This document shows, in pieces, positions 18,027 to 55,153 of a stretch of DNA of 64,000 nt. Origin of the DNA: an uncultured Candidatus Saccharibacteria bacterium. Lineage in GTDB: Bacteria > Patescibacteriota > CALEFQ01 > G965231055. The notes beneath the pieces are model-generated. The model was not told the DNA's origin. It searched no databases and was given only the letters and a program-made list of their open reading frames with translations. The DNA is taken from positions 180,711 through 244,710 of the forward strand of contig OZ246411.1 in assembly GCA_965231055.1 (NCBI GenBank), given 5' to 3'. Made by a program: the position numbers and the translations under genes. Each line of letters opens with the position of its first letter. Within the stretch, counting starts at the first letter, position 1.

Positions 18027-18104
18027 GGCGCCATCGTCTAGCCTGGCCTAGGACGCTAGGTTTTCATCCTAGTAACTCGGGTTCGAATCCCGATGGCGCT
18101 GCCA
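18027..18104 (+). tRNA. tRNA-Glu (anticodon TTC), with encoded CCA
   Basis: Hand-folded cloverleaf. Acceptor GGCGCCA/TGGCGCT, D-stem GTCT/GGAC, anticodon stem CTAGG/CCTAG with loop TTTTCAT (U33, TTC, A37), T-arm TCGGG-TTCGAAT-CCCGA, discriminator G, CCA. Confidence 0.8.
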
Positions 18105-39399: not shown

Positions 39400-40551
39400 A
39401 TGAACACAAAAGAGCTTATCAAAATTCTTTCCTCCCTTATCGAGACCAAAAGCGTCAATCCCCCAGGAAATGAATACAAGACAGCAAAAATAGTAGAGAA
39501 AATTTTTAGATCTCAAAAAATTAAATATACTATTCACGAAAAACAAAAAGGACGAACCAATGTAATCGGAAGAATTGGTGATCCCAAAAAAGGTCCATCC
39601 ATAATGATAAACTGCCACATGGACACTGTTCCAGCGGGAAATGGATGGAAAACAGATCCTTTTAAACTCATACAAAAAGGAGATACTCTTTTTGGAAGAG
39701 GTGTTTGTGACAACAAAGGACAACTCGCTTCGATGCTTTTGGCTTGTAAGGAACTAAAACAGCTTGAACCCAAATTAAAAGGTGAAATTATTTTGGTTGC
39801 TGCAGCGGATGAAGAAACAGGGTCAGAAAATGGAATACACTGGTTGGTTGAAAAAGGATTGATCAAGCCAGATATGGGAATAATTCCAGACGTCCCAGAT
39901 GGAACCAAAATCATAATGGCACAAAAAAGATTACTTCACCTAAAAATTGTAACCAGAGGCAAGTCCACCCATGGATCCACTCCGCATTTAGGAAAAAATG
40001 CCATTACTCAAATGATAAAATTCGTAAATATATTGGACGAATATAAGTTTGAAGCAATTCCAAGTGAGTATTTCAATCTGCACACTATGAACATAGGAAC
40101 AATCAGCGGAGGTAACGCCATAAACATGGTTCCCGACTATTGCGAATGCAAAGTTGATTTTAGGTTACTAAAAAATCAATCAAAAAAATATATTTTAAGC
40201 GAACTCAAAAAAATCTCCAAAAGAATAAAAGGAGCCAAGTTTGAATTTGTAGAAGAAGGCTATTCTGACTACGCTGAGGTGGATAGAAACAGCGAAATCA
40301 TTCGCTCTTGCGAAAAAGCCATCACCAAGACATTTGGGAAAAAACCCAAACTAGTGGGCATAGGCGGGTGCACGGACTCAAAAGCACTAACGCTCAAGGG
40401 GATTCCAGTAGCCGATGTTTCAATAGCAGGAAAAGGCGCACATGAACCAAATGAAAGTGTAAAATTATCAGAGCTCATAAAGCTCAGTAGGTTTTTTGTG
40501 GAGGTAGTCACAGATATACTAGCTAAACAGCAAAAAATCTTGAAAAAATGA
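39400..40551 (+). CDS. M20-family metallopeptidase (ArgE/DapE-like deacylase)
   Basis: HMDTVPAGNGWKTDPF, GRGVCDNKG and AADEETGS metal-binding motifs. Confidence 0.75.
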   Translation: MNTKELIKILSSLIETKSVNPPGNEYKTAKIVEKIFRSQKIKYTIHEKQKGRTNVIGRIGDPKKGPSIMINCHMDTVPAGNGWKTDPFKLIQKGDTLFGRGVCDNKGQLASMLLACKELKQLEPKLKGEIILVAAADEETGSENGIHWLVEKGLIKPDMGIIPDVPDGTKIIMAQKRLLHLKIVTRGKSTHGSTPHLGKNAITQMIKFVNILDEYKFEAIPSEYFNLHTMNIGTISGGNAINMVPDYCECKVDFRLLKNQSKKYILSELKKISKRIKGAKFEFVEEGYSDYAEVDRNSEIIRSCEKAITKTFGKKPKLVGIGGCTDSKALTLKGIPVADVSIAGKGAHEPNESVKLSELIKLSRFFVEVVTDILAKQQKILKK

Positions 40552-41432: not shown

Positions 41433-41929
41433 TGAAAAGTAAAAACAAAAAGAGAACTATAATACTGGGAATAGATCCTGGCACCGCCACTACTGGGTTT
41501 GGAGTAATATATAAAGAAGGTGGTGAAATCGGTTTTATAGATTGCGGAATAATAAAAACGAGTCCCAAAACCTCTTTTCCCAAAAGACTTTTGGAAATAG
41601 AAAAGGATTTATCGAGTATAATCAAAAAACACAAACCAAATAGTGTAGCAATAGAAAAGATTTTTTTCGCCAAAAACACAAAAACAGCAATAGAGGTAGG
41701 ACACGCCAGAGGAGTTGCAATATTGGTAGCTGCAAAAAGTAAAAAGGATATTTTTGAATATACTCCCCTTGAAGTAAAGCAGGCTATTACGGGATATGGT
41801 GGTGCAGACAAAAAACAGATTCAGGAAATGGTTAAATGCACTCTATGCCTAGAGCAAATTCCCAAACCAGATGACGCAGCTGACGCTCTAGCTATTGCAA
41901 TTTGCCATTCACAAAACAGAAAATTATAA
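41432..41929 (+). CDS. ruvC: Holliday junction resolvase RuvC
   Basis: ILGIDPGTATTGFGV, KQAITGYGGADKKQI and DAADALAIAICH. The start overlaps the yebC stop. Confidence 0.85.
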   Translation: MKSKNKKRTIILGIDPGTATTGFGVIYKEGGEIGFIDCGIIKTSPKTSFPKRLLEIEKDLSSIIKKHKPNSVAIEKIFFAKNTKTAIEVGHARGVAILVAAKSKKDIFEYTPLEVKQAITGYGGADKKQIQEMVKCTLCLEQIPKPDDAADALAIAICHSQNRKL

Positions 41930-42004
41930 TTTTTTAAATTTGTTTTTAGATTCTCAACGATTGATATGAGCAATCATCAATCGCTGGTAATTTAAACTCT
42001 AAAA

Positions 42005-43525
42005 ATGAAAAAAATAAACAAAATCTTGGTTTGTGTTTTGGCTTTGATCTCACTAGCCTACTTTGGAATCGCCAATGCACAAAACGAGACAGAAATACCC
42101 CCAGAAAAAAAGCTAACAGCATCTATTCAGGTTGATAGATCTATTTTGGTGGGAGATAAAACTATATTCAACTCATCAAAGAGTATAATTCCAGAAAGCA
42201 AAAATCAGGCAATCTACACTTGGGACTTTGGCAATGGCGCATACAGCAACGAACCAAATCCTGTTTATACATACAACTCATCCGGAGACTACACGGTAAA
42301 ACTAACCGTAAAACAAGGAAAAGAAACTGCATCAGAAGAAATAAGCGTGAAGGTTTTTGAGCACCTTATAATTTTGATCAACGACGGGTCTGCAGATGAA
42401 AATATAATGAAAGAATTAGCTAGGTTTGCTAACACAAAAGGAGTGCTACTCGAAAATATTGAAGACAAGTCTGGTCAGCCTGACTATGTAGTATTGGAAA
42501 AACTTTCTCAGAATTTACAAAACTTTTCAGATGAAATTTCAAAAGCGGAAATAATTATTGACTATACCAGTGGTTCTTTGGGATTAAACGCTTTATCAAA
42601 ATTTGTTCAAACAATTGAAGATACTAGTAACCTTGGACTAGAACAAAAAGTAATAGTTACAGCAACTACAAACTCAGCCGTACTAGCTAGGAGCGCCCAA
42701 TCCACATTTGATATCGTGAGACCTCAATACATTCTTTTGGTCAATCCAAACTCACTACATGCGGTAATAGAAGCACAAAGTGCAGACAATGTTTTTGAAT
42801 CAGTTAAAGATAACTTCGGAGATTACAGGTTAATAGGAGTACATAGCGAAAGATCTATCAAGAAACTTGGAGTGACCAATTTCATGACCTATGTTGTGAA
42901 TTTTATGGCGAACAGAGGAGTTCCAATGAATACAATATATCTAATTCTGATTCTTCCAGTTATTGCTACTCTAGTTTCTGTGGCAAGACAGGTAGTGGGA
43001 ATAAAAGCATTTGGTATTTATATAGCCACCATTATAACTCTTGCCTTTATAGTAACTGGAATAAAATATGGATTAATAATTCTTGGAATAATTCTTGCTA
43101 CCAGTGTTCTCGCTAGACTTATTATGAAAAAATTCAAACTTCTCTATCTTCCTCGAATGGCTATAGTTATGACAATTATGGGACTTGTGATTTTCGCTAT
43201 GTTTGCAGTAGGAGCGTACACTCATCGAACTGGATTTCTATCTATTTCTATATTCCCTATCTTGATAATCACAATGCTTGCAGAAAAATTTGTGGAAGAA
43301 CAAATAAGAGAAGGTATGAAAAACGCGATCCTGCTTTCTATTTTTACACTCCTAATCTCCGTTGCTGCTTATTTTCTTGTAAGCTGGGATTCATTTAGAA
43401 CATTGGTCCTTAGCTATCCTGAAATAATACTTCTTACTGTAGTTATAAATATCGCACTTGGAAGATTTACAGGACTAAGGCTTACTGAGTACTTTAGATT
43501 TCGCATTGCGAGAAAATCTCATTAA
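42005..43525 (+). CDS. Membrane protein: signal peptide + PKD-domain ectodomain + C-terminal 7TM module (7TM of the 7TM-transglutaminase type)
   Basis: PKD signature WDFGNGAYSNEPNPVYTYNSSGDYTVKLTV. The C-terminal ~230 aa contain seven hydrophobic helices. Confidence 0.55.
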   Translation: MKKINKILVCVLALISLAYFGIANAQNETEIPPEKKLTASIQVDRSILVGDKTIFNSSKSIIPESKNQAIYTWDFGNGAYSNEPNPVYTYNSSGDYTVKLTVKQGKETASEEISVKVFEHLIILINDGSADENIMKELARFANTKGVLLENIEDKSGQPDYVVLEKLSQNLQNFSDEISKAEIIIDYTSGSLGLNALSKFVQTIEDTSNLGLEQKVIVTATTNSAVLARSAQSTFDIVRPQYILLVNPNSLHAVIEAQSADNVFESVKDNFGDYRLIGVHSERSIKKLGVTNFMTYVVNFMANRGVPMNTIYLILILPVIATLVSVARQVVGIKAFGIYIATIITLAFIVTGIKYGLIILGIILATSVLARLIMKKFKLLYLPRMAIVMTIMGLVIFAMFAVGAYTHRTGFLSISIFPILIITMLAEKFVEEQIREGMKNAILLSIFTLLISVAAYFLVSWDSFRTLVLSYPEIILLTVVINIALGRFTGLRLTEYFRFRIARKSH

Positions 43526-43542
43526 AAACATAAACTAAAACT

Positions 43543-45897
43543 ATGTCAGATGTATTGGGAATGAATGCTAGAAATTTTAACTTTATAAGCCGAGAAAATA
43601 AACGCGGCGCAGTTAGAATTGCTGACAGCAAATCAAAAACCAAATCCATACTTTCTCGCTTTGATATTCCCACCATGCCCCTACTCGCCAAAGTTACAAA
43701 CTACAGGGACATAAAAAAGTTGAACCTCGTTGAAATGCCAGGGCAATTTGTTATCAAACCAGACAGAGGACTTGCTGGAGGAGGAATTTTGGTAATAAAT
43801 GAAATTACTGAAGACGAAAAAGGAAAACCTGCCTTCAAAACTTCAAGCGGTAAAATCTGGAAAGAAAAAGAAATAAAAGATCACCTAAGAGATATTTTGG
43901 ATGGTAATTTTTCCATATCTGGCACTCCCGATATAGCAATAATAGAAGAGAAGGCTATTCTTGATCCAGAAATTAGAAAAATAGCTCCAAAAGGAGTTCC
44001 TGATATTAGAATTATTACTTACAACAAAGTTCCAGTAATAGCTATGATGCGCATACCTACTGAGGCATCTCATGGTAAAGCCAATCTCAAGCTTGGAGCT
44101 ATAGGAGTAGGAATCGACATCGCCACGGGAAAAACCACAACAGCTGAAATTCAAAAACCCAAGAGAATGAGAATTACCAAACACCCTGAGAATAAATTTA
44201 CTTTGAAAGGTTTTCAGATTCCTCGCTGGAACGATATACTTGAAATAGCGGTCAAATGCCAAGAAGCTTCAGGACTAGGATATATGGGAGCAGACATAGT
44301 TCCTGAAAAAAACAGAGGACCGGTGGTTTTTGAAATCAATGCTAGACCAGGACTTGAAATACAAAATGTAAACGAATCGGGGCTTTACAGAAGACTTGAA
44401 AGAGTAAAAGGATTGAAAATTGACAGCGTTGCGAAGGGAATCAGGGTTGCGAAGGAGCTTTTTGGTGATATTGAAAACAGAGTTGAAGATATTTCAGGAA
44501 AACAAATAATAGGACTAAGCGAAACGATAGAATTAAGAGGAAAGGATAATAAAAAAATCAAAACACTGGCCAAGATAGAAACAGGATCAGCACTCTCCTC
44601 TATCTCCAAATCCATAGCGGAAAAACTAGGATTCAATCCGGAAGAAAAAACCGCAGATATTTCAATCTTGCTCGAAGAGATTAGATTTTCAACAAAAGTT
44701 AAAATTGACGATTCTGTAGATAAAAAATTTAGTGTGGTAATAGGACAAAAAGATCTCAAAAGCTTTATCATAGATCCCTCCAAAAAAGACAAAGTCGGAT
44801 ATGAAACAAATAAAATTTCACTTTACCAAACAATAGATAGAAAACTTGCAGATTCTTTCAGGGGAATAAATATTATCAGATCTCTAACCCCTACAAATCT
44901 ACAAGAACAAAAACAACTCTTTTTCAAAAAAGAAATTGATAGTCCGATTTTCGAATACGGAAACACCAACACGGAACTACTAAAACTACAAAAAGAAAAA
45001 CTAAAATCTCTCAAATTAGACTCCTCAACGCTAGGAACAATCTTTGGAGAATCAAGAGATGAACAGCTTAAAAAAATAGATCTCGTTATGAGCATAGGAA
45101 ATGAAAATTTTAATGAAAAATCAGAAGCGCTCTATGGAAGCCCCGCTGGATACCTCGTTGAATATGCTACAAAAAATTATAAAAGAAAATCTCCATCTTC
45201 TTCCAGCAAACAGTTCATAAGAGGAGAGGAAGTTTACAATGAAATCAAAAAGTTTCTTGTTAGAAATCAAATACCTCATAGAATTACAATGATGAAAGAA
45301 CTGTCCTCTAGGGTTTCCGTAATAGTGTCAGAAAACAGAGCGCTTGTCTCAGTAAGAAACGATGCAAAATTCACCAAAGAAGAGCTCAGGGGAACAATAG
45401 CTCATGAAATTGAAACTCATCTCTATAGAGCACTAAATGCTCAAAAACAAAAGTACAAAATATTTTCAATGGGACTATCAGGATACAAGGATGCAGAGGA
45501 AGGATTGGCAATAAAAAACAAGGAAGTTATATATAAAAATCCACGAAGATACGATACGAAGTGTATATATGTTTTGGCTATCAAGCACGCACAGAGCCAT
45601 TCTTTTTCAGAAACCTTTGGTTATCTAAAAACACTAGGCGTTGATGATAATGCTTCCTGGAACATCACTTACAAAGTAAAAAGAGGACTAAAAGATACTT
45701 CAAAGCCTGGAGCATTTACAAAAGACCTTGTATATCTAAGAGGGTTTTTGGAAATAGATAAACTCTGGAACAAGCCAGAAACCATAAAAAGATTGTACAT
45801 AGGAAGAATAGGGATTTCTTCACTGAAACTAATAGACAATTTGAATTTTATTAATCCACCAAAATATTTACCAGAATTTTTTAATCAAACCAAATGA
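43543..45897 (+). CDS. Three-domain fusion: RimK-like ATP-grasp (alpha-L-glutamate-ligase-related) + retropepsin-like (Zn_protease-type) + DUF1704 (QEGLA-motif) domain
   Basis: ATP-grasp motifs FVIKPDRGLAGGGI, KANLKLGAIGVGIDIATG and VVFEINARPG. Middle region KIETGSALSSISKSIAEKLGF (retropepsin-like, D replaced by E). C-terminal AHEIETH...AEEGLAIKNKE (QEGLA-type). Confidence 0.55.
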   Translation: MSDVLGMNARNFNFISRENKRGAVRIADSKSKTKSILSRFDIPTMPLLAKVTNYRDIKKLNLVEMPGQFVIKPDRGLAGGGILVINEITEDEKGKPAFKTSSGKIWKEKEIKDHLRDILDGNFSISGTPDIAIIEEKAILDPEIRKIAPKGVPDIRIITYNKVPVIAMMRIPTEASHGKANLKLGAIGVGIDIATGKTTTAEIQKPKRMRITKHPENKFTLKGFQIPRWNDILEIAVKCQEASGLGYMGADIVPEKNRGPVVFEINARPGLEIQNVNESGLYRRLERVKGLKIDSVAKGIRVAKELFGDIENRVEDISGKQIIGLSETIELRGKDNKKIKTLAKIETGSALSSISKSIAEKLGFNPEEKTADISILLEEIRFSTKVKIDDSVDKKFSVVIGQKDLKSFIIDPSKKDKVGYETNKISLYQTIDRKLADSFRGINIIRSLTPTNLQEQKQLFFKKEIDSPIFEYGNTNTELLKLQKEKLKSLKLDSSTLGTIFGESRDEQLKKIDLVMSIGNENFNEKSEALYGSPAGYLVEYATKNYKRKSPSSSSKQFIRGEEVYNEIKKFLVRNQIPHRITMMKELSSRVSVIVSENRALVSVRNDAKFTKEELRGTIAHEIETHLYRALNAQKQKYKIFSMGLSGYKDAEEGLAIKNKEVIYKNPRRYDTKCIYVLAIKHAQSHSFSETFGYLKTLGVDDNASWNITYKVKRGLKDTSKPGAFTKDLVYLRGFLEIDKLWNKPETIKRLYIGRIGISSLKLIDNLNFINPPKYLPEFFNQTK

Positions 45898-46835
45898 AAA
45901 CAGTACTAAGTCTTTATGGAGGAGATTCTGATTTCAAAACTTCAACGCCACCAAAAGATAAAAAATACAGGGAGTGCTATGAATACATGTACGAACTCGC
46001 TAAAAAGCACGGGGTTAGATTGGTGAGAGCGTCCAATAGTTGGTACGATGAAAAAAAGAGAGTGTTTAAACACGCTTGGACATACGAAAAAGAAAAAGGA
46101 TGGTTTACTATAGGAGAAACGAAACCCGATCTTGTCTGGGATAAAATGAACGCAAGCACCGAAAACGATGAATTTAGATTCGTAATAGCAAAAGCTTTTA
46201 AAATTATTAATGATCCCTTGTTTGCTCAAACAATAAACAATAAATTTCTATCTTCTTTGTTTTTCAAAGAATTCATACCCCAAACTATTTATCTGGATAA
46301 AACTACGGATGTAAAAAATGTAGCAAAAAAAATAAAAAGCGATAAGATAGTTTTTAAACCATTAACAAAAAGTGGTGGTAGCGGAATAATAATCGTAAAA
46401 CACAACGAAATAGCAAAAATAAAAATAAATGATCCGTATTTAGCACAGGAGTTCATAGAAACAGATGGCGGAATAAAGAACATAACAAATGATCGCCACG
46501 ACCTTAGACTAACCTTTGTTAACGAAAAACTAATTTACGCATACATACGAACTCCAGCAAAGGGCAAGCTCTTGGCAAATGTGTCCCAAGGTGGCAGTAT
46601 GGCAATTGTACCCATAGACAAGCTCCCTGAAAGCATTAAACCAATTCTCAAGCTCAATGAAAAATTGTTTGCGGATTTTAACCCAAGAATCTATACCATA
46701 GACTTAATGTTTGGACCAAAACAGAAACCCTATGTTGTAGAAATGAATGCAAGACCAGGAGTATATTTCTATCCTGATCAAAAAAGATGGCAAGATAGAT
46801 TTTATATGGCGATGATTGATGTGTTTAAAGAATAA
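45894..46835 (+). CDS. ATP-grasp fold amidoligase (YheC/D-like)
   Basis: KSGGSGIIIV...QEFIE...VVEMNARPG. Overlaps its neighbours by 4 and 20 nt. Confidence 0.55.
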   Translation: MKTVLSLYGGDSDFKTSTPPKDKKYRECYEYMYELAKKHGVRLVRASNSWYDEKKRVFKHAWTYEKEKGWFTIGETKPDLVWDKMNASTENDEFRFVIAKAFKIINDPLFAQTINNKFLSSLFFKEFIPQTIYLDKTTDVKNVAKKIKSDKIVFKPLTKSGGSGIIIVKHNEIAKIKINDPYLAQEFIETDGGIKNITNDRHDLRLTFVNEKLIYAYIRTPAKGKLLANVSQGGSMAIVPIDKLPESIKPILKLNEKLFADFNPRIYTIDLMFGPKQKPYVVEMNARPGVYFYPDQKRWQDRFYMAMIDVFKE

Positions 46836-47985
46836 TTTTATGAAAAACCAATTTATAGAAATAGGTGCTGATCCAAAAAAAGAAAAAGGCAATATTTTGA
46901 AATTATACATTGAAGAGGTTGTAAAAAGAAATCTACCAATATTCAAAATTACGCGTGGTATGTACCAATTCGGGATAGGAAACAAACTAAAAACTCTAAT
47001 GGGGCTTGCGACCCTTAGGGCTGCAAGGTTGACCAAAAACAAAAATTTAACTCACAACATATTACGAGGGTGTAATATAAGCGTTCCCAAACAGATTCTT
47101 CTAGAGAAAGACGACAAAGATCTTAAAAAAATAGAAGGATTAAAATTTCCGCTTGTGGCTAAGCCTTTTGATAAATCTCTTAGTTTTGGCGTAACACTTG
47201 ATATAAGAGACAAAAACCAATTGAAAAAAGCAATTAGTTACGCTTTTAAATGCGGAAGCAAAGTGGTAATAGAAGAATTCATAGGTCATTCCTTTGACTA
47301 TCGTTTGAGCTTTTTTGATGGGCATTATCTTGGCACAATGGTATCAATACCTCAATACATAAAAGGGGATGGTAAAAAAACAACACAGCAACTCATAAAC
47401 GAACTTAACGTTTGGAGAAAAAAAGAATACAACCTAAAGCCTAGAGAAAATAAATGGATATATCACATGGCTCTTCTAAGCTACGGGCTAACATTCAACT
47501 CGATCCCCGCGAAAGGTAAAAAAATCAAAATTTATAGCGGTTCAGGTTTGTACGAAAATGTTTCTGAAAAAATTCACCCCGAAAATATTGAACTTTGCAG
47601 AATGGCATCTGATGTACTTGGTCTGACTCTTTCAGGTGTGGATTTCATGAGTCCAAACGCCTCTATTCCCTACTATAAAAATGGTGGAAAAATCAACGAA
47701 ATAAACGACTTTCCTGATCTTGGCATTTACACAAAAACACCCATTGGTAAAAAAATTAATGTCGCGGAGAAAGCCGTGCAAATAATGTTTCCCACCGACA
47801 AGTCAGCTTGGGTGCCGATTAAATACAAAGGCAGAATAATTACAGAATTCAACGAGCTAAAGAAACTACTAAACGTAAAGCCAAGAGAAGTATTCTTGAG
47901 TGACCCCGATAGAAAAATAAAAAACAAAAAACTTCCGTTGATCGCATTTCTTACTAACTTTAGGGTCACAAAAATTAATATTTAG
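46816..47985 (+). CDS. ATP-grasp ligase, cyanophycin-synthetase-N-domain-like (paralogue 1 of 3)
   Basis: PLVAKPFDKSLSFGV, IKGDGKKTTQQLINELN and GVDFMSPNASIPYYKNGGKINEINDFP. Confidence 0.55.
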   Translation: MMCLKNNFMKNQFIEIGADPKKEKGNILKLYIEEVVKRNLPIFKITRGMYQFGIGNKLKTLMGLATLRAARLTKNKNLTHNILRGCNISVPKQILLEKDDKDLKKIEGLKFPLVAKPFDKSLSFGVTLDIRDKNQLKKAISYAFKCGSKVVIEEFIGHSFDYRLSFFDGHYLGTMVSIPQYIKGDGKKTTQQLINELNVWRKKEYNLKPRENKWIYHMALLSYGLTFNSIPAKGKKIKIYSGSGLYENVSEKIHPENIELCRMASDVLGLTLSGVDFMSPNASIPYYKNGGKINEINDFPDLGIYTKTPIGKKINVAEKAVQIMFPTDKSAWVPIKYKGRIITEFNELKKLLNVKPREVFLSDPDRKIKNKKLPLIAFLTNFRVTKINI

Positions 47986-48004
47986 CATAATAATAAATAA
48001 GCAT

Positions 48005-49150
48005 ATGTACAAAATCACAACACTAAAGAATCATTTAGATGAAAAAAGTAATTTTCTTAGAGCTTACCTGAAACACCTTTTAAAAAAGGATATCCCTGTT
48101 TTTAAGATAAAGGATCAGCTATATCAATTCGGAATCGGTGAAAAACTAACAAACATGAAGGCGCTTGATTCTCTCAAGAGCGCAATGATCTCAAAAGATA
48201 AAAATCAAACAAGCTACTTGCTGTCTGCCTGCGGGATCAATGTGCCTAAACAGGTACTAATTAAAAAAGACGACAAGGATAATTGTGAAAAATTTATCAA
48301 AGAGCTTAAATACCCATTAGTGGTAAAACCAGCGGATCTTTCATTGAGCATAGGTGTGACTCTTGATATCAAGAATCAAAAACAACTCAAGAAGGCGCTT
48401 AATTATGCCTTCACAAAATCAACACTGGTTGTTATTGAAGAATACGTAAAAGATGCTCTTGATCATAGGCTAACCTTTTTTAAAGATAACTTTCTTGGAT
48501 GCCTCGTCTCTATACCCCAATACATAGAAGGCGACGGAAAGAAAACAGTAAAAAAATTAATTGCTGAACTAGACTCTTACAGAAAAAAAAGATTCAATCT
48601 AAAACCAAGAACAAGCGACTGGATATATCACACCGCACTCCTTAGACACAACCTATCTTACTCATCAATCCTAGCAGTCAATAAGAAAATAAAAATATAT
48701 AGTGGGTCAGGACTATATGAGAATATTTCAGAAAAAGTGCATCCAGAAAATATTGAGCTCTGCATGCTAGCTACTCAAATCCTTGGACTAAGCTTCTCGG
48801 GCGTTGATTTTATGAGCCCAGACGCTTCTGTTCCATATTACGAAAACGGCGGTACAATCAACGAAGTAAACTCATTCCCCGATATCGGAATTTATTTAAA
48901 AACACCTCTTGGAAAAAAGGTTGATTTGGGCGAAAAAATCTCAAACCTTATGTTTCCAAAAGATAAAGATGCTTGGATACCTATCACATACAAAGGAAAG
49001 CTAGTTACTAGTTTCACTGAACTAAAAAAACTGTTGAACACAAAGCCACGGGAAATTTTTATGAGTGCTTCAAATAAAAAAATTATTAACAATAAACTTC
49101 CTCTAATAGCCTTTCTTATTAACTCCAAAGTGAAAAGCATAAATATCTAG
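48005..49150 (+). CDS. ATP-grasp ligase, CphA-N-like (paralogue 2 of 3)
   Basis: PLVVKPADLSLSIGV, IEGDGKKTVKKLIAELD and GVDFMSPDASVPYYENGGTINEVNSFP. Confidence 0.55.
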   Translation: MYKITTLKNHLDEKSNFLRAYLKHLLKKDIPVFKIKDQLYQFGIGEKLTNMKALDSLKSAMISKDKNQTSYLLSACGINVPKQVLIKKDDKDNCEKFIKELKYPLVVKPADLSLSIGVTLDIKNQKQLKKALNYAFTKSTLVVIEEYVKDALDHRLTFFKDNFLGCLVSIPQYIEGDGKKTVKKLIAELDSYRKKRFNLKPRTSDWIYHTALLRHNLSYSSILAVNKKIKIYSGSGLYENISEKVHPENIELCMLATQILGLSFSGVDFMSPDASVPYYENGGTINEVNSFPDIGIYLKTPLGKKVDLGEKISNLMFPKDKDAWIPITYKGKLVTSFTELKKLLNTKPREIFMSASNKKIINNKLPLIAFLINSKVKSINI

Positions 49151-49156
49151 AAAAAA

Positions 49157-50302
49157 ATGGTAATAAAAACTTCCCTTGAAATTTCGAAAGAATCAAAAAA
49201 ACAACTATCTCTCTTGTTAAAAGAAGTTGCAATTAGAAATCTACCGGGATTCAAAATAAGAGAAAATGAGTATTTTGCGGGAATAGGGCAAAAAATCATA
49301 TGCTTATCCTACCTAAACAGCTCGTTGTCAGTTGCAAGATCTAGAAATAAATTTTACACTTCTGAAATATTAAAAAACTGTAAAATTCCTGTTCCCAAAT
49401 GCATTCTCTTACTTGAAAAAGATAAATCAAAATATAAAGAAAAAACTAAAAACTTAAAACTACCATTGGTGGTGAAACCAGCAAGCGGATCCTTGGCAAA
49501 AGGAATTACTTTGGGAGTAAAAACTGAAAAACAAATAAAAGAGGCGCTCAAATATGCCCTACAATATGACGATCAATTAATTATAGAGGAATTTATTCCG
49601 AACATGCTAGATTATCGCATTACGTTTTACAAGGGCAAGTATCTAGGGGCCCTATTGGCAGCACCTGAAGTGGTAATCGGGGATGGTACAAATACTGTCG
49701 AACACCTTATTGACGAGTATAACCACACAAGAAAAACAAAATACAATCTACCACCACTTACGCATGAATGGATTTTTAAAACCTACTTAGCGCAGTATGG
49801 GTATGATCTCAAATCAATACCACCCAAAGATAAAGTTATAAGAATTTATGGAAGAGGGGGGATATACGAAAACGCCACTGAAAAAGTGCATCCAGAAAAT
49901 ATTGAACTTTGTAGGAGTGCTTGCCAAGTTATGGGATTAAAATTCGCTGGAGTTGATTTTATGAGTCCAGACGCCTCCGTTCCTTACCATAAAAACGGAG
50001 CGCTCATCAACGAAATTAACTCATTTCCACACCTAGATATGTATGAACAAATCATTATCGGCAAAAAAATACCTCTAGCAAAAAACATTGTGAAATTAAT
50101 GTTTCCAAAAGATAAAGATGCTTGGATACCTATAATTGCTAACAACAAGGAAATAACTAATTTTGACGAATTAAAAAAACATCTCAAAGAAAAACCCAAG
50201 GAAGTGGAATTAAAAGATCCAAAAAGAATAATAAAAAATGCACCGCTTCCGCTGTTAAGTTATCTAATAAACTCAAAAACAACAAAAATAAAAATCAAAT
50301 AA
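49157..50302 (+). CDS. ATP-grasp ligase, CphA-N-like (paralogue 3 of 3)
   Basis: PLVVKPASGSLAKGI, VIGDGTNTVEHLIDEYN and GVDFMSPDASVPYHKNGALINEINSFP. Confidence 0.55.
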   Translation: MVIKTSLEISKESKKQLSLLLKEVAIRNLPGFKIRENEYFAGIGQKIICLSYLNSSLSVARSRNKFYTSEILKNCKIPVPKCILLLEKDKSKYKEKTKNLKLPLVVKPASGSLAKGITLGVKTEKQIKEALKYALQYDDQLIIEEFIPNMLDYRITFYKGKYLGALLAAPEVVIGDGTNTVEHLIDEYNHTRKTKYNLPPLTHEWIFKTYLAQYGYDLKSIPPKDKVIRIYGRGGIYENATEKVHPENIELCRSACQVMGLKFAGVDFMSPDASVPYHKNGALINEINSFPHLDMYEQIIIGKKIPLAKNIVKLMFPKDKDAWIPIIANNKEITNFDELKKHLKEKPKEVELKDPKRIIKNAPLPLLSYLINSKTTKIKIK

Positions 50303-50400
50303 ACCAAAAGAGTAATTCATTTAAGAATTGCTCTTTTTGATAATTTGAATAGTGAAATTTATAGTACTAATAATAAAACAATCAAACAAAACTAAGTTAT

Positions 50401-50437
50401 TTAAAAAAACGAACCTTCGGATAAGGTTCGTTGTTGT
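50401..50437. terminator. Bidirectional rho-independent terminator
   Basis: A7-CGAACCTT-cggataa-GGTTCG-TTGTTGT; a strong T-run on the - strand. Confidence 0.65.
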
Positions 50438-50452
50438 ATGAGCGAAAATTTA

Positions 50453-50812
50453 TTAGGAAGGTGTGCTTTTTGATAGTTCTCGCAGGCGAGAGTAAGCCGC
50501 GTAATAAAGAAACCTTGGCCATATTGCGATAAGACCAACCCAAATAATCGACAATAGGAACAGTAGAAGGTTTGCAACAATTACTTTCGGCGATTTGGCA
50601 TCCCACAAACTCATAGCCATGATAATGATGCCAAAAAAGTGAACCATCAAACCAGCTCCTAGAAATACTTTTTGGAGATACGGATCAGATCCTCTTCTTA
50701 AAGAAGAGATCTTGTTAAGGACTTTTCCAAGCCCCCAAAACCAGTAGAAAATCCCCGCCCCCAAGCAAAACGCGAACCCCATGATGAACATACCCATTTC
50801 TAATTTTTGCAC
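50453..50812 (-). CDS. Small integral membrane protein (4 TM), hypothetical
   Basis: 119 aa, hydrophobic throughout. Confidence 0.5.
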   Translation of the reverse strand: MQKLEMGMFIMGFAFCLGAGIFYWFWGLGKVLNKISSLRRGSDPYLQKVFLGAGLMVHFFGIIIMAMSLWDAKSPKVIVANLLLFLLSIIWVGLIAIWPRFLYYAAYSRLRELSKSTPS

Positions 50813-52246: not shown

Positions 52247-55153
52247 ATGGCTAAACGATCAACAACTATAAAAACATTGGGCGTGTTTAAAAAACACACC
52301 AAACCAGGTGTGAAACCCGCATCCAACGAAAAACCCATTAAAAATAAAAAAGTGAAACATCTTTTCAAGGAGTTTTGGATGAAACTCTCTCCAAGAAAAA
52401 GAAAAATTCTGAAATGGGTAGGAATTGTTATTGGCGTGCTTTTTGGAATACTTATAGTTTCTATGATTGTTTTGGCATTTCAGCTTCCAAATCCAAACAG
52501 AATTATGGATAGAGATATGCAATTGGCAACACAAATACTAGATAGAAATGGCGAGCTCCTCTACTCTATTCATGGAGACGAAAACAGAACCATGGTGCAG
52601 ATCGAAGATATTCCAGAAAATGTAAAAAATGCCACAATAGCGATAGAAGATCCGAATTTTTACAAACACATGGGATTTAGTTTGAAAGGAATACTGAGAG
52701 CCGTGTTTAGAAATATTACCGGTGGAACAACTCAGGGAGGATCAACTATTACTCAGCAATTTGTAAAAAATTCCATACTAACTCCGGAAAAAACATTTAC
52801 AAGAAAATTCAAAGAGCTTGTACTTTCATTTGAAATTGAACTTGTTTTTACCAAAGAGCAAATACTTCAGATGTATTTCAATGAAATTCCATATGGATCA
52901 ACTGCCTATGGAATCAAAGCAGCATCTGAAACATTTTTCGGTAAAGAATTGAAAGATCTCACGCTAGCTGAGTCAGCGTATCTCGCAGGACTTCCTCAAG
53001 CACCTAGCAGATACTCACCTTTTATAAATCCCGAGTACGGAAAACAGCGCCAAGAGCATGTATTGAATGTTATGGCGGAACGAGGATACATAAATCAGGA
53101 ACAAGCAGACGAAGCCAAGACACAAGAACTAAACTTCAAGCAAAGAATAACCAACATCAAGGCACCTCATTTTGTTTTTTACGTACGACAAATACTTGAA
53201 GAACAATATGGAACAAAAAAGATAGAGCAAGGTGGACTAAAAGTTACTACGACTCTTGACGTCAATATGCAGAAAATTGCCGAAGAAGAAGTTTCAAAGC
53301 AAGCAGAAAAAAATAAGGCTTTTGGTTTTTATAACGCAGCGCTATCTGCAATGAATCCTAAGAATGGAGAGGTTTTGGCTATGGCTGGATCTGTAGATTA
53401 TTTTGCAGGAAAACAAGAAAACGGAAAACTTGATGGCCAGGTGAATGTTATGACTAGCTACAGACAACCGGGATCTTCTTTTAAACCCATCGCATATACC
53501 AAGGCATTTGAAAAAGGAATTCCTCCTTCAACAATATTATTTGACGTAAAAACAAACTTCGGAGGAGTTTCACAAGATTATATTCCCTCAAACTTTTCAA
53601 AAAGCTTTGCTGGACCAATTGATATTAGACACGCACTTCAGCAATCACTAAACATTCCTGCTATCAAAGCTTTTTACTTAGCTAAACCAGAAGACGTGGC
53701 TACTTTGGCGAACAAATTGGGCTACAGTAACTTTGAACAAGGCAAGGATTATGGACTAGCTACGGCTATAGGAGCGCGCGAAGTGAAAGGAATAGAACAC
53801 CTAGGAGCATTTGCTACATTTGCAAACAATGGTGTGAATATGGGAATCAAAACAATATTAAAAATAGAAGACTCATCTGGTAAAGTACTTTATGAAAAAG
53901 AAGACGAAGGAACAAGAGTGGTAGATGAAAACGCTGCAAAAACAATTACCAACGTGCTTTCGGATAACAACTCAAGAACATGGGGAAGAACTGAGCTCAC
54001 AATTTCTGATGGAAGACCGGTTGCTGCCAAAACAGGTACAAGCAATAAAAATATAGGCACTTCTAGTCTTACAAACAACACCTGGACAGTTGGATACACT
54101 CCAAGCCTAGCCGCAGTGGCTTGGGCGGGAAATAGCGATGGCTCTGTGGGTAATTATAGAGCTGAGTCTTTGTACAACGCTTCTCCTATTTGGAAGGGCT
54201 TCATGGAAAGAGCTACCGCAAGCACGGAAAAAGAACAATTTGATGCACCAAAACCGATAGAAAGCTCCAAATCAATGCTAAGAGGAAAAATGGACGAAGA
54301 AACAAAGATAACAATATGCAAACCATCAAAACTCATAGCCACAGAGAATTGTCCTGAAAGCATGAGGGAAGAAAAAACTTTCAGAGAAGTTCATACTATT
54401 CTTTACTACATAGATAGAGATAACCCAAGCGGAGATTCTCCCAAAAACCCAGAAAAGGATCCTCAATTTAGAAAGTGGGAAGACGCAGTTAAAGAATGGG
54501 CTAAAGAAAAAGGATACGAAGAAGAAGCTCCTACAGAAAATGACAAGGATCATGAAAAAGATCAGTGGCCAGAAATTGAAATCAAATCACCTTCTGATAA
54601 CGCAGAAGTAAGCAGTGATTCGTTCTCGGTGACTGTAAACATAGATGCGCCAAGAAAGATTAATAGGGTTGTTTATTATATAAATGGCATTGAGGTAGGA
54701 ACTTCCAAAAAATCGCCTTGGGGTGGCAATATAAAGCTTCCACAGGGTACTGGAATTGGTTTCCAGAAGCTAAAAGCACTCGTCTTTGATGATGTTGAAA
54801 ACTCAGCAAGCTCAGAAATATCTATTAATGTTAAAGCGAGCAACATACCCCCTTCTGTAAGCATCCTAAATCCACAAAATGGAGCTGAGGTTGCCGTTGG
54901 AGATTCGCCTTTTGAAATTTCAGCTTCGACATCTTCGGGATCAGGAATTCAGAAAGTAACTTTTTACTACAGAAAAGAAAGCGCCTCTAACTATACCCTG
55001 TTAAGCACAGTAACCACTGAAAGCAGTGAAGATATTTATAAGACCGACTTCACTCCCCCATCTGATGGCTCTTACTTTATCTACGCCATAGTAAAGGACA
55101 ACAACGGAAGAACAACAAACAGTAGCAAGGTGAAGCTAATAGTAAAACCATGA
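52247..55153 (+). CDS. Class A penicillin-binding protein (glycosyltransferase + transpeptidase) with C-terminal Ig-like extensions
   Basis: GT51 motifs IAIEDPNFYKHMGF and GGSTITQQFVKN. TP motifs SSFKP (SxxK) and KTGTSN (KTG). N-terminal TM. Confidence 0.85.
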   Translation: MAKRSTTIKTLGVFKKHTKPGVKPASNEKPIKNKKVKHLFKEFWMKLSPRKRKILKWVGIVIGVLFGILIVSMIVLAFQLPNPNRIMDRDMQLATQILDRNGELLYSIHGDENRTMVQIEDIPENVKNATIAIEDPNFYKHMGFSLKGILRAVFRNITGGTTQGGSTITQQFVKNSILTPEKTFTRKFKELVLSFEIELVFTKEQILQMYFNEIPYGSTAYGIKAASETFFGKELKDLTLAESAYLAGLPQAPSRYSPFINPEYGKQRQEHVLNVMAERGYINQEQADEAKTQELNFKQRITNIKAPHFVFYVRQILEEQYGTKKIEQGGLKVTTTLDVNMQKIAEEEVSKQAEKNKAFGFYNAALSAMNPKNGEVLAMAGSVDYFAGKQENGKLDGQVNVMTSYRQPGSSFKPIAYTKAFEKGIPPSTILFDVKTNFGGVSQDYIPSNFSKSFAGPIDIRHALQQSLNIPAIKAFYLAKPEDVATLANKLGYSNFEQGKDYGLATAIGAREVKGIEHLGAFATFANNGVNMGIKTILKIEDSSGKVLYEKEDEGTRVVDENAAKTITNVLSDNNSRTWGRTELTISDGRPVAAKTGTSNKNIGTSSLTNNTWTVGYTPSLAAVAWAGNSDGSVGNYRAESLYNASPIWKGFMERATASTEKEQFDAPKPIESSKSMLRGKMDEETKITICKPSKLIATENCPESMREEKTFREVHTILYYIDRDNPSGDSPKNPEKDPQFRKWEDAVKEWAKEKGYEEEAPTENDKDHEKDQWPEIEIKSPSDNAEVSSDSFSVTVNIDAPRKINRVVYYINGIEVGTSKKSPWGGNIKLPQGTGIGFQKLKALVFDDVENSASSEISINVKASNIPPSVSILNPQNGAEVAVGDSPFEISASTSSGSGIQKVTFYYRKESASNYTLLSTVTTESSEDIYKTDFTPPSDGSYFIYAIVKDNNGRTTNSSKVKLIVKP

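What the first reader, a model, noticed from the sequence alone, without database searches (positions are those of the whole stretch)
42005..50302. Six-gene membrane-linked ATP-grasp peptide-ligase operon (7TM protein + RimK-like/retropepsin-like/QEGLA fusion + four further ATP-grasp ligases)
A tight operon, with gaps or overlaps of 20 nt or less, runs in this order. First, a secreted PKD-domain protein whose C-terminus is a seven-helix membrane module. Second, a 784-aa protein that fuses a RimK-like ATP-grasp, a retropepsin-like domain (KIETGS, probably inactive) and a DUF1704/QEGLA domain. Third, a YheC/D-like ATP-grasp. Then three tandem paralogous ATP-grasp enzymes resembling the N-terminal domain of cyanophycin synthetase. 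The known syntenic triad is 7TM-transglutaminase + RimK-related alpha-L-glutamate ligase + retropepsin-like protease, proposed in comparative-genomics work to be a membrane-associated peptide-tagging system, and it remains experimentally uncharacterised. Here the ligase and protease are fused to a QEGLA domain, the transglutaminase ectodomain is replaced by PKD, and four extra amidoligases are added. This points to a multi-step, non-ribosomal, ATP-grasp-dependent synthesis of a poly-amino-acid or peptide tag, possibly exported or surface-attached. I am not aware of this exact architecture being described.
Basis: partly seen in the sequence, partly recalled or inferred. Interest (0 to 1): 0.85.

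Follow-up and report, generated by a model that had tools for sequence, protein, structure and literature searches.

The report
Membrane-linked multi-ligase peptide maker with built-in trimmer
A tiny-genome (CPR/Patescibacteria) bacterium has a real six-gene operon: a membrane protein, five peptide-bond-forming ATP-grasp ligase domains and a built-in carboxypeptidase related to the human tubulin-trimming enzyme MATCAP. It is an expanded, rewired version of the only partly understood Rlo stress-tolerance system of Pseudomonas.

Summary
Six co-directional ORFs lie at 42005-50302 with gaps or overlaps of 20 nt or less. A promoter-like site precedes them and a hairpin follows.

The gene products are:
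- P1: signal peptide, PKD, a flavodoxin-like alpha/beta ectodomain and a 7TM_transglut (RloB-type) module.
- P2: RloC-type ATP-grasp, a retropepsin-like domain (catalytic Asp replaced by Glu) and MATCAP/QEGLA with its HExxxH and EEGLA motifs intact.
- P3: a generic RimK/GshB-like ATP-grasp.
- P4-P6: three paralogues (47-59% identical) of the cyanophycin synthetase G domain only, plus a conserved C-terminal extension.

The triad now has genetics and biochemistry as RloABC (mBio 2025). DUF1704 is now a proven C-terminal Tyr/Glu carboxypeptidase. The building blocks are common in Patescibacteria.

New findings here:
- The retropepsin D[TS]G motif survives in 90/90 two-domain relatives but only 10/30 MATCAP-fused ones.
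- Accessory ligase number ranges from 0 to 4 across the loci examined; this window alone has 4.

Best reading: a membrane-tethered system in which ligases add and a peptidase removes residues on short, probably acidic, amino-acid chains. It is probably linked to envelope or osmotic homeostasis. The chemistry is inferred, not shown. It is a new variant of a known kind.

The parts
41902..41930 (+). Promoter-like site (TTGCCA-17-TATAAT) inside the 3' end of ruvC, 75 nt upstream of the P1 ATG
   Evidence: best match in the region, 11 of 12 positions. It is a consensus match only. In relatives L002 and L003 the 7TM gene follows ruvC by 4-38 nt, so read-through from yebC-ruvC is also possible.
42005..43525 (+). 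P1, a 506-aa membrane protein (RloB-like). Signal peptide aa 1-25 (42005-42079); PKD aa 39-117 (42119-42355); flavodoxin-like alpha/beta ectodomain aa 120-277 (42362-42835); 7TM module aa 290-505 (42872-43519), ending in the conserved GLRLxEYxRFR motif and a basic tail.
43543..45897 (+). P2, a 784-aa three-domain fusion with no signal peptide, so cytoplasmic
   Evidence: AF2 model, pLDDT 90.
43549..44427 (+). P2 domain 1: RloC-type ATP-grasp ligase (aa 3-295)
   Evidence: PF14397 8e-65. TIGR02291 2.6e-80 (269.8 bits, below the 314.2 equivalog cut-off). K72, D251, E264 and N266 are invariant in 20 fusions. Foldseek: RimK 5zct, E 3e-9.
44500..44775 (+). P2 domain 2: retropepsin-like (RimB/RloA family) beta-rich domain, aa ~320-411. 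Its catalytic motif reads ETG (E346; 44578-44586) instead of DTG.
   Evidence: Asp_protease_2 E=0.003. PF05618 at 32-38 bits (cut-off 27) in homologues P0005, P0006, P0014 and P0031. D[TS]G in 90/90 two-domain relatives versus 10/30 three-domain relatives.
44836..45891 (+). P2 domain 3: MATCAP/TMCP-type metallocarboxypeptidase (aa 432-783). HEIETH lies at 45403-45420 and EEGLA at 45496-45510.
   Evidence: PF08014 3e-43; TIGR02421 7.5e-49. H621, E622, H626, E653, G654 and L655 are invariant. Profile hit to human MATCAP 7z5g, 2.3e-29. Foldseek hit to 7z5g, 3e-13, TM 0.64.
45894..46835 (+). P3, a 313-aa stand-alone ATP-grasp ligase (RimK/GshB/MptN/YheCD-like). Its start overlaps the P2 stop by 4 nt.
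   Evidence: Orthologue-like genes sit next to the 7TM/ligase pair in about 13 of 80 species loci and in L085. No PDB relative was found by sequence.
46840..47985 (+). P4, a 381-aa CphA-G-domain-like ATP-grasp with a C-terminal extension. An alternative TTG start lies at 46816.
   Evidence: NF010623 1e-46, positions 166-482 of 871. Called as 381 aa in L001. 59% identical to P5.
48005..49150 (+). P5, a 381-aa paralogue of P4
   Evidence: NF010623 9.4e-51.
49157..50302 (+). P6, a 381-aa paralogue, closest to the single-copy gene in relative L085 (57%)
   Evidence: TIGR02068 1.6e-52. PDB CphA1 7wac residues 169-492, 5.5e-28..
50306..50337 (+). 13-bp hairpin followed by a U-rich stretch, 4 nt after the P6 stop codon; probable intrinsic terminator marking the operon end
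   Evidence: -14.3 kcal/mol, z = -4.8, 0 of 200 shuffles fold as well. Sequence.

Best explanation
This is a Patescibacteria version of the Rlo-type (7TM + RimK-related ligase + retropepsin) system, expanded into a membrane-tethered multi-ligase machine with its own trimming enzyme.

Shown: P1 has an exported PKD plus flavodoxin-like ectodomain and an RloB-type seven-helix module ending in a conserved basic tail (cytoplasmic by inferred topology: N-terminus outside, seven helices). P2 is cytoplasmic. It carries a catalytically intact RloC-type ATP-grasp ligase, a retropepsin-like domain that has lost its catalytic Asp, and an intact MATCAP-type zinc carboxypeptidase. P3 and P4-P6 are four further ATP-grasp ligases with intact catalytic residues. 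P4-P6 correspond to the cyanophycin synthetase G domain, the module that extends a peptide at its C-terminal carboxylate.

Inferred: the ligases activate the C-terminal carboxylate of a growing chain as an acyl-phosphate and add amino acids one at a time. P2 would start or extend the chain, and P3-P6 would add further or different residues. The product would be a short, probably acidic (Glu/Asp-rich), alpha-linked chain on an acceptor not yet identified.

The fused MATCAP domain would remove residues from the same C-terminus. It would set chain length or recycle the product, taking over the hydrolase role held by the retropepsin protease in RimB/RloA systems. The dead retropepsin domain would be kept as a binding or dimerisation module.

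The 7TM protein would tether the machine to the membrane and either regulate it or export its product, coupling it to the envelope. The physiological role would be envelope or osmotic homeostasis, by analogy with Rlo.
For: Domain identities and intact catalytic motifs.

Functional linkage by conserved neighbourhood: the 7TM gene sits directly upstream of the RloC-type ligase in nearly all of 80 species-level loci. MATCAP occurs fused, or as an adjacent gene upstream or convergent downstream, in different lineages (L009, L025, L041, L051-L060, L059/L061). Extra ATP-grasp genes (0-4) follow on the same strand.

Hydrolase replacement: D[TS]G is kept in 90/90 ligase+retropepsin proteins but in only 10/30 MATCAP fusions, while HExxxH/EGLA is invariant.

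Chemistry of relatives, from the literature:
- RimK makes poly-alpha-Glu, and RimB removes Glu and stimulates RimK (PMC11957791).
- RloA cleaves poly-Glu, and loss of rloB or rloC suppresses loss of the proteases (PMC12239564).
- MATCAP/TMCP enzymes remove C-terminal Tyr/Glu and shorten alpha-linked poly-Glu (PMC10499314).

From my own knowledge, not checked here: the CphA G domain adds Asp to a C-terminal carboxylate.

A bona fide RimK gene lies next to the fusion in L007 and L083.

Osmotic link: Rlo phenotypes, and low-salinity induction of a QEGLA gene (27x) and the adjacent ATP-grasp gene (38x) in Photobacterium (PMC10308900).

The P1 tail is basic and its juxtamembrane motif is conserved, which fits docking of an acidic partner or product.
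Against: No substrate, product or acceptor is known for any member, including RloC. Amino-acid specificity cannot be read from these sequences. P2's ligase scores below the TIGR02291 equivalog cut-off, and the MATCAP domain scores below the TIGR02421 cut-off.

In Pseudomonas the protease is periplasmic, whereas here all hydrolase domains are cytoplasmic, so the topology of the pathway may differ. The role of the 7TM protein (tether, sensor or exporter) is undetermined. The closest syntenic relative, L002, works with no accessory ligases at all, so P3-P6 may serve a side function. The ETG motif might retain some activity.
Confidence: 0.5

Rival explanations
1. Protein C-terminal tagging cycle. 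The ligases add a tail, Glu-rich or a defined mixed sequence, to the C-terminus of a specific protein, and the MATCAP domain removes it. This would be a bacterial counterpart of RimK/RimB acting on ribosomal protein S6, or of TTL/TTLL with MATCAP acting on tubulin.
For: RimK and RimB act on the RpsF C-terminus (PMC11957791). MATCAP/TMCP enzymes are protein C-terminal carboxypeptidases (PMC10499314). The fusion of ligase and peptidase suggests both act on one shared C-terminus. P3 and its relatives give weak TTL-family hits.
Against: No candidate acceptor was found. The tail of the 7TM protein is basic and variable, not a conserved acidic C-terminus. No small ORF fits inside the operon, since gaps are 19 nt or less. 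RimK also makes free poly-Glu, and Lormand et al. found no genome-encoded poly-Glu substrates for RloA (PMC12239564).
Confidence: 0.2
2. Assembly line for a defined small peptide metabolite, such as an osmolyte, a thiol or another di- to pentapeptide. It would be built by successive L-amino-acid-ligase steps. The MATCAP domain would act in maturation or degradation, and the 7TM protein would act as exporter or sensor.
For: P4-P6 also hit the ATP-grasp parts of GshAB (e-21 to e-29) and of N-acetylglutaminylglutamine synthetase (e-20 to e-25), which make small peptides. Variable numbers of different ligase clades resemble a modular pathway. Multi-ATP-grasp giant proteins exist among the relatives.
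Against: The core ligase is RimK-related, and its partner proteases (retropepsin, MATCAP) act on polymer or protein tails. Three recent paralogues (47-59% identical) fit repeated extension better than three chemically distinct steps. The relative L002 has no accessory ligases.
Confidence: 0.15
3. Modification of the peptidoglycan stem peptide or cross-bridge. The ligases would add residues to cell-wall precursors at the membrane, and the MATCAP domain would trim stem peptides.
For: The operon is flanked by envelope genes: VanW, an L,D-transpeptidase, PBP1A and LytR-CpsA-Psr. P4-P6 share the Ddl-like ATP-grasp core. rlo mutants have cell-shape and beta-lactam phenotypes (PMC12239564). MreB neighbours the L053-type cluster.
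Against: Ddl matches are partial (profile positions 1-82 of 204) and far below family cut-offs. PBP1A lies beyond a convergent TyrRS gene, and that synteny is kept in L002, which has no extra ligases. There are no Mur-ligase or Fem-type genes in the operon.
Confidence: 0.1
4. An ordinary cyanophycin or poly-gamma-glutamate storage or capsule locus.
For: The best named hits of P4-P6 are cyanophycin synthetases.
Against: Only the G domain is present. There is no N domain and no Mur-ligase-like M domain. Scores are 154-179 bits against cut-offs of 850-877. No CapB/PgsB-type genes and no cyanophycinase are present.
Confidence: 0.03

Closest known systems
RloABC system of Pseudomonas aeruginosa (Lormand et al., mBio 2025, PMC12239564). 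I recall that work as Iyer et al. 2009, which is reference 35 of the Rlo paper, but it was not held in the library, so I could not check what it predicts.
   Same: It has an RloB-type 7TM module (PF14402), an RloC-type cytoplasmic ATP-grasp (PF14397/TIGR02291-like) and a RimB/RloA-family retropepsin-like domain. All are encoded together, with the 7TM gene next to the ligase gene.
   Different: The ectodomain is PKD plus a flavodoxin-like domain instead of an inactive transglutaminase. The retropepsin domain is fused to the C-terminus of the cytoplasmic ligase, has no signal peptide and has lost its catalytic Asp. A MATCAP carboxypeptidase is fused on, and four extra ligases are added. The host is a Patescibacteria organism, whereas 96% of RloB hits in that paper were Proteobacteria.
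RimK/RimB and the RimBK hybrid enzyme (Little et al., JBC 2025, PMC11957791)
   Same: An alpha-L-glutamate-ligase-type ATP-grasp is physically coupled to a retropepsin-like peptidase that removes the added residues. Ligase-protease fusion has precedent, and RimBK is proteolytically active.
   Different: In RimBK the protease domain is N-terminal and the ligase is true RimK. Here the order is reversed, the ligase is RloC-type, the protease motif is degenerate, and a membrane partner is present. This is therefore an independent fusion.
MATCAP/TMCP1-2 (KIAA0895L/KIAA0895) tubulin carboxypeptidases, and bacterial QEGLA proteins (TIGR02421)
   Same: PF08014 domain with HExxxH and E-E/Q-G-L-A motifs. 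The fold matches human MATCAP (Foldseek 3e-13). The eukaryotic enzymes oppose ATP-grasp ligases (TTL/TTLL) acting on the same C-terminal tails.
   Different: Here the peptidase is in the same polypeptide as the ligase. No tubulin or microtubule-binding context exists. The score is below the TIGR02421 equivalog cut-off, and the substrate is unknown.
Cyanophycin synthetase CphA1/CphA2 (PDB 7wac, 7lg5, 7ta5, 8fxh)
   Same: P4-P6 align with the ATP-grasp G domain (CphA1 residues ~165-492) and have intact catalytic residues.
   Different: The N domain and the Mur-ligase-like M domain are absent. P4-P6 are stand-alone 381-aa proteins with a distinct conserved ~55-aa C-terminal extension, and they occur in three tandem copies.

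Membership tests
Rlo system (RloA/RloB/RloC) | RloB-type seven-helix membrane module (PF14402 / NF052267 C-terminal half) | tested here: met
   PF14402 at 100.1 bits against a cut-off of 25. NF052267 aligned at 307-504 of 508, 8e-24.
Rlo system (RloA/RloB/RloC) | Periplasmic inactive transglutaminase domain on the 7TM protein | tested here: not met
Rlo system (RloA/RloB/RloC) | Cytoplasmic RloC-type ATP-grasp (TIGR02291 / PF14397) | tested here: inconclusive
   PF14397 at 219 bits passes its 31.4 cut-off. TIGR02291 at 269.8 bits is below its 314.2 equivalog cut-off. The protein belongs to the same family but orthology is not established.
Rlo system (RloA/RloB/RloC) | Secreted, catalytically active retropepsin-like protease (signal peptide plus DTG) | tested here: not met
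   The domain is internal to a cytoplasmic fusion and has no signal peptide. The motif is ETG. PF05618 is detectable only in homologues.
RimK/RimB (RimBK) | Full-length RimK ATP-grasp with the RimK pre-ATP-grasp domain | tested here: not met
   PF08443 matches only profile positions 132-171 in P2. TIGR00768 scores 32 bits against a cut-off of 143.
MATCAP/TMCP (PF08014; TIGR02421 QEGLA) | HExxxH zinc site plus the E-[EQ]-G-L-A motif, and the MATCAP fold | tested here: met
   HEIETH and EEGLA are present and invariant in 20 fusions. PF08014 at 148.6 bits against a cut-off of 27. Human MATCAP 7z5g matched by profile at 2.3e-29 and by Foldseek at 3e-13. TIGR02421 at 166.9 bits is below its 338.65 cut-off.
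MATCAP/TMCP (PF08014; TIGR02421 QEGLA) | Carboxypeptidase activity on C-terminal Tyr/Glu | not testable with these tools
   This needs an enzyme assay.
Cyanophycin synthetase (CphA1) | N domain, G (ATP-grasp) domain and M (Mur-ligase-like) domain in one ~870-aa protein | tested here: not met
   Only positions ~165-483 are matched. Scores of 154-179 bits fall far below cut-offs of 850-877. The proteins are 381 aa with no Mur-ligase hit.
D-Ala-D-Ala ligase | Full Ddl N- and C-domains scoring above family cut-offs | tested here: not met
   PF07478 matches only profile positions 1-82 of 204. NCBIfam Ddl scores of 40-54 bits fall below cut-offs of 243-310.
ATP-grasp carboxylate-amine ligases (superfamily) | ATP-binding Lys and Mg-binding D/E/N triad intact in all five ligase domains | tested here: met
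   P2: K72, D251, E264, N266. P4-P6 family: K107, E144, R154, D267, E286, N288 invariant. P3: the KP, DLR and D...EMN motifs are visible in its sequence.

The most novel reading that the evidence does not exclude
The operon encodes a bacterial 'C-terminal code' machine. Five ATP-grasp ligases with different specificities would write a defined, non-ribosomal hetero-oligopeptide tail onto a protein or peptide acceptor at the membrane. The fused MATCAP domain would erase it. This would be a prokaryotic counterpart, and possibly an evolutionary source, of the eukaryotic TTL/TTLL-MATCAP tubulin tyrosination and glutamylation cycle. The 7TM-PKD protein would couple the cycle to signals from outside the cell.
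Probability: 0.12. Interest if true: 0.85.

Novelty: new variant of a known kind. Interest (0 to 1): 0.6.

Why it matters
[quoted passage not shown] The Patescibacteria versions place the ligase, the former protease and a carboxypeptidase of known specificity class in a single polypeptide. They also provide natural series with 0-4 accessory ligases. That gives a compact, soluble entry point for finding out what RloC-type ligases make.

Loss of the retropepsin catalytic motif wherever MATCAP is fused is a clear natural experiment. It suggests both hydrolases act on the same product.

The operon also supplies a bacterial setting for the MATCAP family, so far characterised only on tubulin, next to its natural ATP-grasp partners. 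Finally, it points to a conserved envelope-linked peptide pathway in Patescibacteria, organisms with very little biosynthetic capacity.

Tried and rejected
1. Transglutaminase ectodomain. There is no HMM hit, and the predicted fold is flavodoxin-like. Rejected.

2. Cyanophycin synthetase, Ddl or glutathione synthetase membership for P4-P6. Matches are partial and far below cut-offs, and the N and M domains are absent. Rejected.

3. The C-terminus of the 7TM protein as the ligation acceptor. The tails are basic and variable. Unlikely.

4. A precursor-peptide ORF inside the operon. Gaps are 19 nt or less, so there is no room.

5. A riboswitch or other RNA element. Rfam finds only a tRNA, at 18027-18101.

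6. Horizontal-transfer island. GC is 0.34-0.36, like the flanks. The chromosomal slot YebC-RuvC ... TyrRS-PBP1A is conserved in relatives L002 and L003. The core pair is native; only the accessory ligases vary.

7. Direct fold confirmation of the retropepsin domain. The Foldseek top 50 was filled by MATCAP and ATP-grasp hits, so this was inconclusive. I relied on PF05618 hits in homologues and on the beta-rich secondary structure of the model.

8. Word-indexed homologue search with P6 returned only 5 proteins. The exhaustive search was needed.

9. Iyer et al. 2009, which I recall as the original prediction of the triad, is not held in the library.

10. No paper in the library contains both 'ATP-grasp' and 'MATCAP'. 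No follow-up on Rlo chemistry was found.

11. No name or taxon was attached to the exact proteins. The organism is identified only as Patescibacteria-like, from its relatives.


Full report
**Observation.** The fourth gene was called from the ATG at 46840 (381 aa) on an independent assembly of the same organism, which matches the length of its paralogues. Junctions are a 17 nt gap, a 4 nt overlap, a 4 nt gap, a 19 nt gap and a 6 nt gap. The best promoter-like match in the region (TTGCCA-17-TATAAT, 11/12) lies at 41902-41930, just before the first ATG. A 13-bp hairpin followed by a U-rich stretch starts 4 nt after the last stop codon (-14.3 kcal/mol, z = -4.8). GC content (0.34-0.36) is the same as in the flanks. 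The operon is real.

**Domain content.** Pfam and NCBIfam reproduce every call.
- P1: PKD (6e-13) plus 7TM_transglut (1.8e-28). The NCBIfam model for RloB aligns only over its C-terminal seven-helix half (8e-24).
- P2: ATPgrasp_ST (8e-65) / TIGR02291 'alpha-L-glutamate ligase-like' (2.6e-80) at aa 3-295, and MATCAP (the former DUF1704) (3e-43) / TIGR02421 QEGLA (7.5e-49) at aa 432-783.
- P3: weak, non-specific hits to GSH-S, RimK, MptN and YheC/D ATP-grasp models.
- P4-P6: cyanophycin synthetase positions ~165-483 (1e-46 to 1.6e-52), with weaker hits to GshAB and N-acetylglutaminylglutamine synthetase ATP-grasp parts. Ddl hits are only partial.

The P4-P6 matches align with residues 169-492 of solved CphA1 structures. 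To my knowledge these residues are the ATP-grasp G domain, not the N domain. The N domain and the Mur-ligase-like M domain are absent. P4/P5, P4/P6 and P5/P6 are 59%, 49% and 47% identical. None shows pairwise similarity to P2's ligase or to P3.

**The middle of P2.** By itself, aa 295-439 gives only Asp_protease_2 at E=0.003. Homologues about 44% identical, and a two-domain relative, pass Pfam PF05618 above its gathering score (32-38 bits against 27). PF05618 is the 'Zn_protease' family, which is really the RimB/RloA retropepsin-like peptidases. The AF2 model of P2 (pLDDT 90) shows a compact beta-rich domain at aa 321-410. The retropepsin-like assignment therefore holds by homology through these relatives.

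**Active sites.** In 20 aligned full-length fusions, the ATP-grasp residues K72, D251, E264 and N266 are invariant. So are the MATCAP residues H621, E622, H626 (HExxxH) and E653-G654-L655. The profile of these fusions finds human MATCAP (7z5g) at 2.3e-29. The P2 model matches it by Foldseek at 3e-13, followed by RimK at 3e-9.

The retropepsin motif behaves differently. Among the 120 best homologues, all 90 two-domain proteins (ligase + retropepsin, ~430-520 aa) keep D[TS]G. Only 10 of 30 three-domain (MATCAP-fused) proteins do, and the window protein has ETG. I read this as functional replacement of the aspartic peptidase by the metallocarboxypeptidase. It also implies that both hydrolases act on the same product. 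The counts are not corrected for phylogeny.

**The membrane protein.** The AF2 model (pLDDT 82.7) shows four parts:
- a signal-peptide helix;
- a five-unit beta-alpha domain at aa 120-277, with pLDDT mostly above 90;
- a helical membrane bundle.

**Comparative genomics.** The exact proteins exist in NCBI on an 843,892-bp contig, without names.
- About 30 clusters of three-domain fusions (33-45% identical) occur in Patescibacteria: Peregrini-/Peribacteria, Gracilibacteria and others. Far more two-domain fusions occur in Moran-, Andersen-, Kerfeld-, Dojka- and Paceibacteria.
- PKD-7TM proteins of 500-550 aa form at least 120 clusters.
- In 80 species-representative loci, the 7TM gene lies directly upstream of the ligase gene in nearly every case.
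- MATCAP is fused in some lineages. In others it is a separate gene directly upstream of the 7TM gene (L059, L061) or just downstream (L009). In eight Dojkabacteria-type loci it is a convergent gene at the end of the cluster 7TM / ligase-retropepsin / three ATP-grasp genes / MATCAP.
- Accessory ATP-grasp genes of several clades follow the core pair in 0, 1, 2 or 3 copies. These include P3-like, CphA-G-like, true RimK, and RimK fused to DUF3541.
- Only this window has four.

**History of the accessory ligases.** Relatives share the same chromosomal slot (YebC-RuvC ... TyrRS-PBP1A):
- L002 has no accessory ligases.
- L003 has three, plus a second MATCAP-like protein.
- L085, a short contig from a closer relative whose flanks are not visible, has P3 plus a single CphA-G-like gene, 57% identical to P6.
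- L083, a more distant locus, combines a three-domain fusion with RimK-like genes, DUF3541 and a 395-aa member of the P4-P6 family.

The core pair is therefore ancient and native, the accessory set is fluid, and the triplication is specific to this lineage. The P4-P6 subfamily is small. An exhaustive search of 1.84 billion representatives gives 79 hits at E of 1e-30 or better. About 15 of these are stand-alone 377-397-aa proteins sharing the conserved C-terminal extension (AWIPI...KPKxV...LLxYLLD). Others are giant proteins with two or three ATP-grasp modules.

**What is known.** It is now RloABC of P. aeruginosa. The secreted RloA proteases cleave poly-glutamate. [quoted passage not shown] Deleting rloB or rloC suppresses these defects. 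The product of RloC is still unknown (PMC12239564).
- RimB removes Glu from RimK-glutamylated RpsF and stimulates poly-alpha-Glu synthesis. A RimB-RimK hybrid, with the protease domain N-terminal, is proteolytically active (PMC11957791).
- MATCAP/TMCP enzymes are HExxxH/EEG metallocarboxypeptidases. They remove C-terminal Tyr and Glu from tubulin tails and shorten poly-Glu chains (PMC10499314).
- In Photobacterium, low salinity induces a QEGLA gene 27-fold, the adjacent 'GshB' ATP-grasp gene 38-fold and rimK 52-fold (PMC10308900).
- No paper in the library mentions both ATP-grasp and MATCAP.

**Mechanism.** My committed reading (confidence about 0.5) is a membrane-tethered cycle of ligation and trimming.
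- The cytoplasmic ligase domain of P2 and the four accessory ligases add amino acids to the C-terminal carboxylate of a growing chain. The chain is probably acidic and alpha-linked.
- The fused MATCAP domain removes residues from that same end.
- The degenerate retropepsin domain is kept for binding or dimerisation.
- P1 anchors the machine and either regulates it or exports its product.
- The pathway serves envelope or osmotic homeostasis.

Shown here: domain identities, intact or degraded catalytic motifs, and conserved gene linkage. Inferred: the substrates, the nature of the acceptor (free chain or protein), the direction of any export, and the physiology.

Rival readings differ mainly in the acceptor:
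- a protein C-terminal tag (0.2);
- a defined small peptide metabolite (0.15);
- peptidoglycan precursors (0.1), suggested by the flanking VanW, L,D-transpeptidase, PBP1A and LCP genes;
- an ordinary cyanophycin or PGA locus, which domain content excludes.

**Verdict.** The finding is real and correctly described. It is a new variant of a known but mechanistically unsolved system. Its parts are widespread in Patescibacteria and already carry automatic domain labels. As far as I could search, three things are undescribed: the ligase-retropepsin-MATCAP fusion, the decay of the aspartic motif that accompanies it, and the 0-4 accessory-ligase series. Together they make the chemistry of Rlo-type systems experimentally approachable.

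Noticed in passing
window 32731-34506, 37504-38982 (-), 52247-55153, 55150-56097: The operon sits among cell-envelope genes: VanW with a PG-binding domain, an FG-GAP + YkuD L,D-transpeptidase, a class A PBP with Big_7 domains, and a LytR-CpsA-Psr protein. PBP1A synteny is kept in relatives L002 and L003.
   Followed up: partly
window 35654-36844 (-): An IS110/IS116-family transposase (PF02371, 1.3e-8) lies about 5 kb upstream of the operon. It is also present on the independent assembly L001.
   Followed up: no
window 59360-60763 (-): A DnaA gene, so the window probably lies close to the replication origin. The cumulative GC skew shows no clear turn.
   Followed up: no
window 50408-50432: A perfect 10-bp palindromic hairpin (AACGAACCTT-cggat-AAGGTTCGTT) with a T-run on the minus strand. 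It is probably the terminator of the convergent minus-strand genes (ORF 50453-50812 and TyrRS). It is separate from the hairpin at the operon's own end.
   Followed up: partly
window 47830-47985, 48995-49150, 50147-50302 (last ~50 aa of P4-P6): A conserved ~55-aa C-terminal extension lies beyond the CphA G-domain boundary (invariant W323, I326, P347, L370; consensus AWIPI...KPKxV...LLxYLLD). It is shared by about 15 stand-alone relatives. Its fold and role are unknown.
   Followed up: partly
window 42362-42835 (P1 aa 120-277): The flavodoxin-like extracellular domain has invariant D127, T188, G193, K215 and Q232 across 37 homologues. This suggests a conserved ligand-binding or catalytic site outside the cell. 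No family match was found.
   Followed up: partly
L053 15076-17367 (-), 17354-18889 (-), 20099-21133 (-): In L053, between the ATP-grasp genes and the convergent MATCAP gene, lie a HisKA_7TM histidine kinase and a 511-aa protein with no Pfam hit. MreB follows the MATCAP gene. In the other seven Dojkabacteria-type loci the MATCAP gene abuts the last ATP-grasp gene.
   Followed up: no
L003 7947-9674: A 575-aa protein whose C-terminal part is a second, divergent MATCAP-like region (PF08014, 1e-9, profile positions 259-332 only). It is embedded among the accessory ligases of the closest species-level relative.
   Followed up: no
L028 11387-13165; L083 4564-5532: DUF3541 recurs in these clusters. 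It is fused to a RimK-like ligase in L028 and stands alone in L083. It may be another component of the system.
   Followed up: no
proteins P0249, P0251, P0252, P0254: Giant proteins of 1,100-1,965 aa carry two or three CphA-G-like ATP-grasp modules in tandem. They look like fused counterparts of the tandem paralogues here, and their contexts were not examined.
   Followed up: no
window 39400-40551: An M20/M28-family metallopeptidase gene lies upstream of yebC-ruvC. It is not conserved at this position in relative L002, so it is probably unrelated to the operon.
   Followed up: partly
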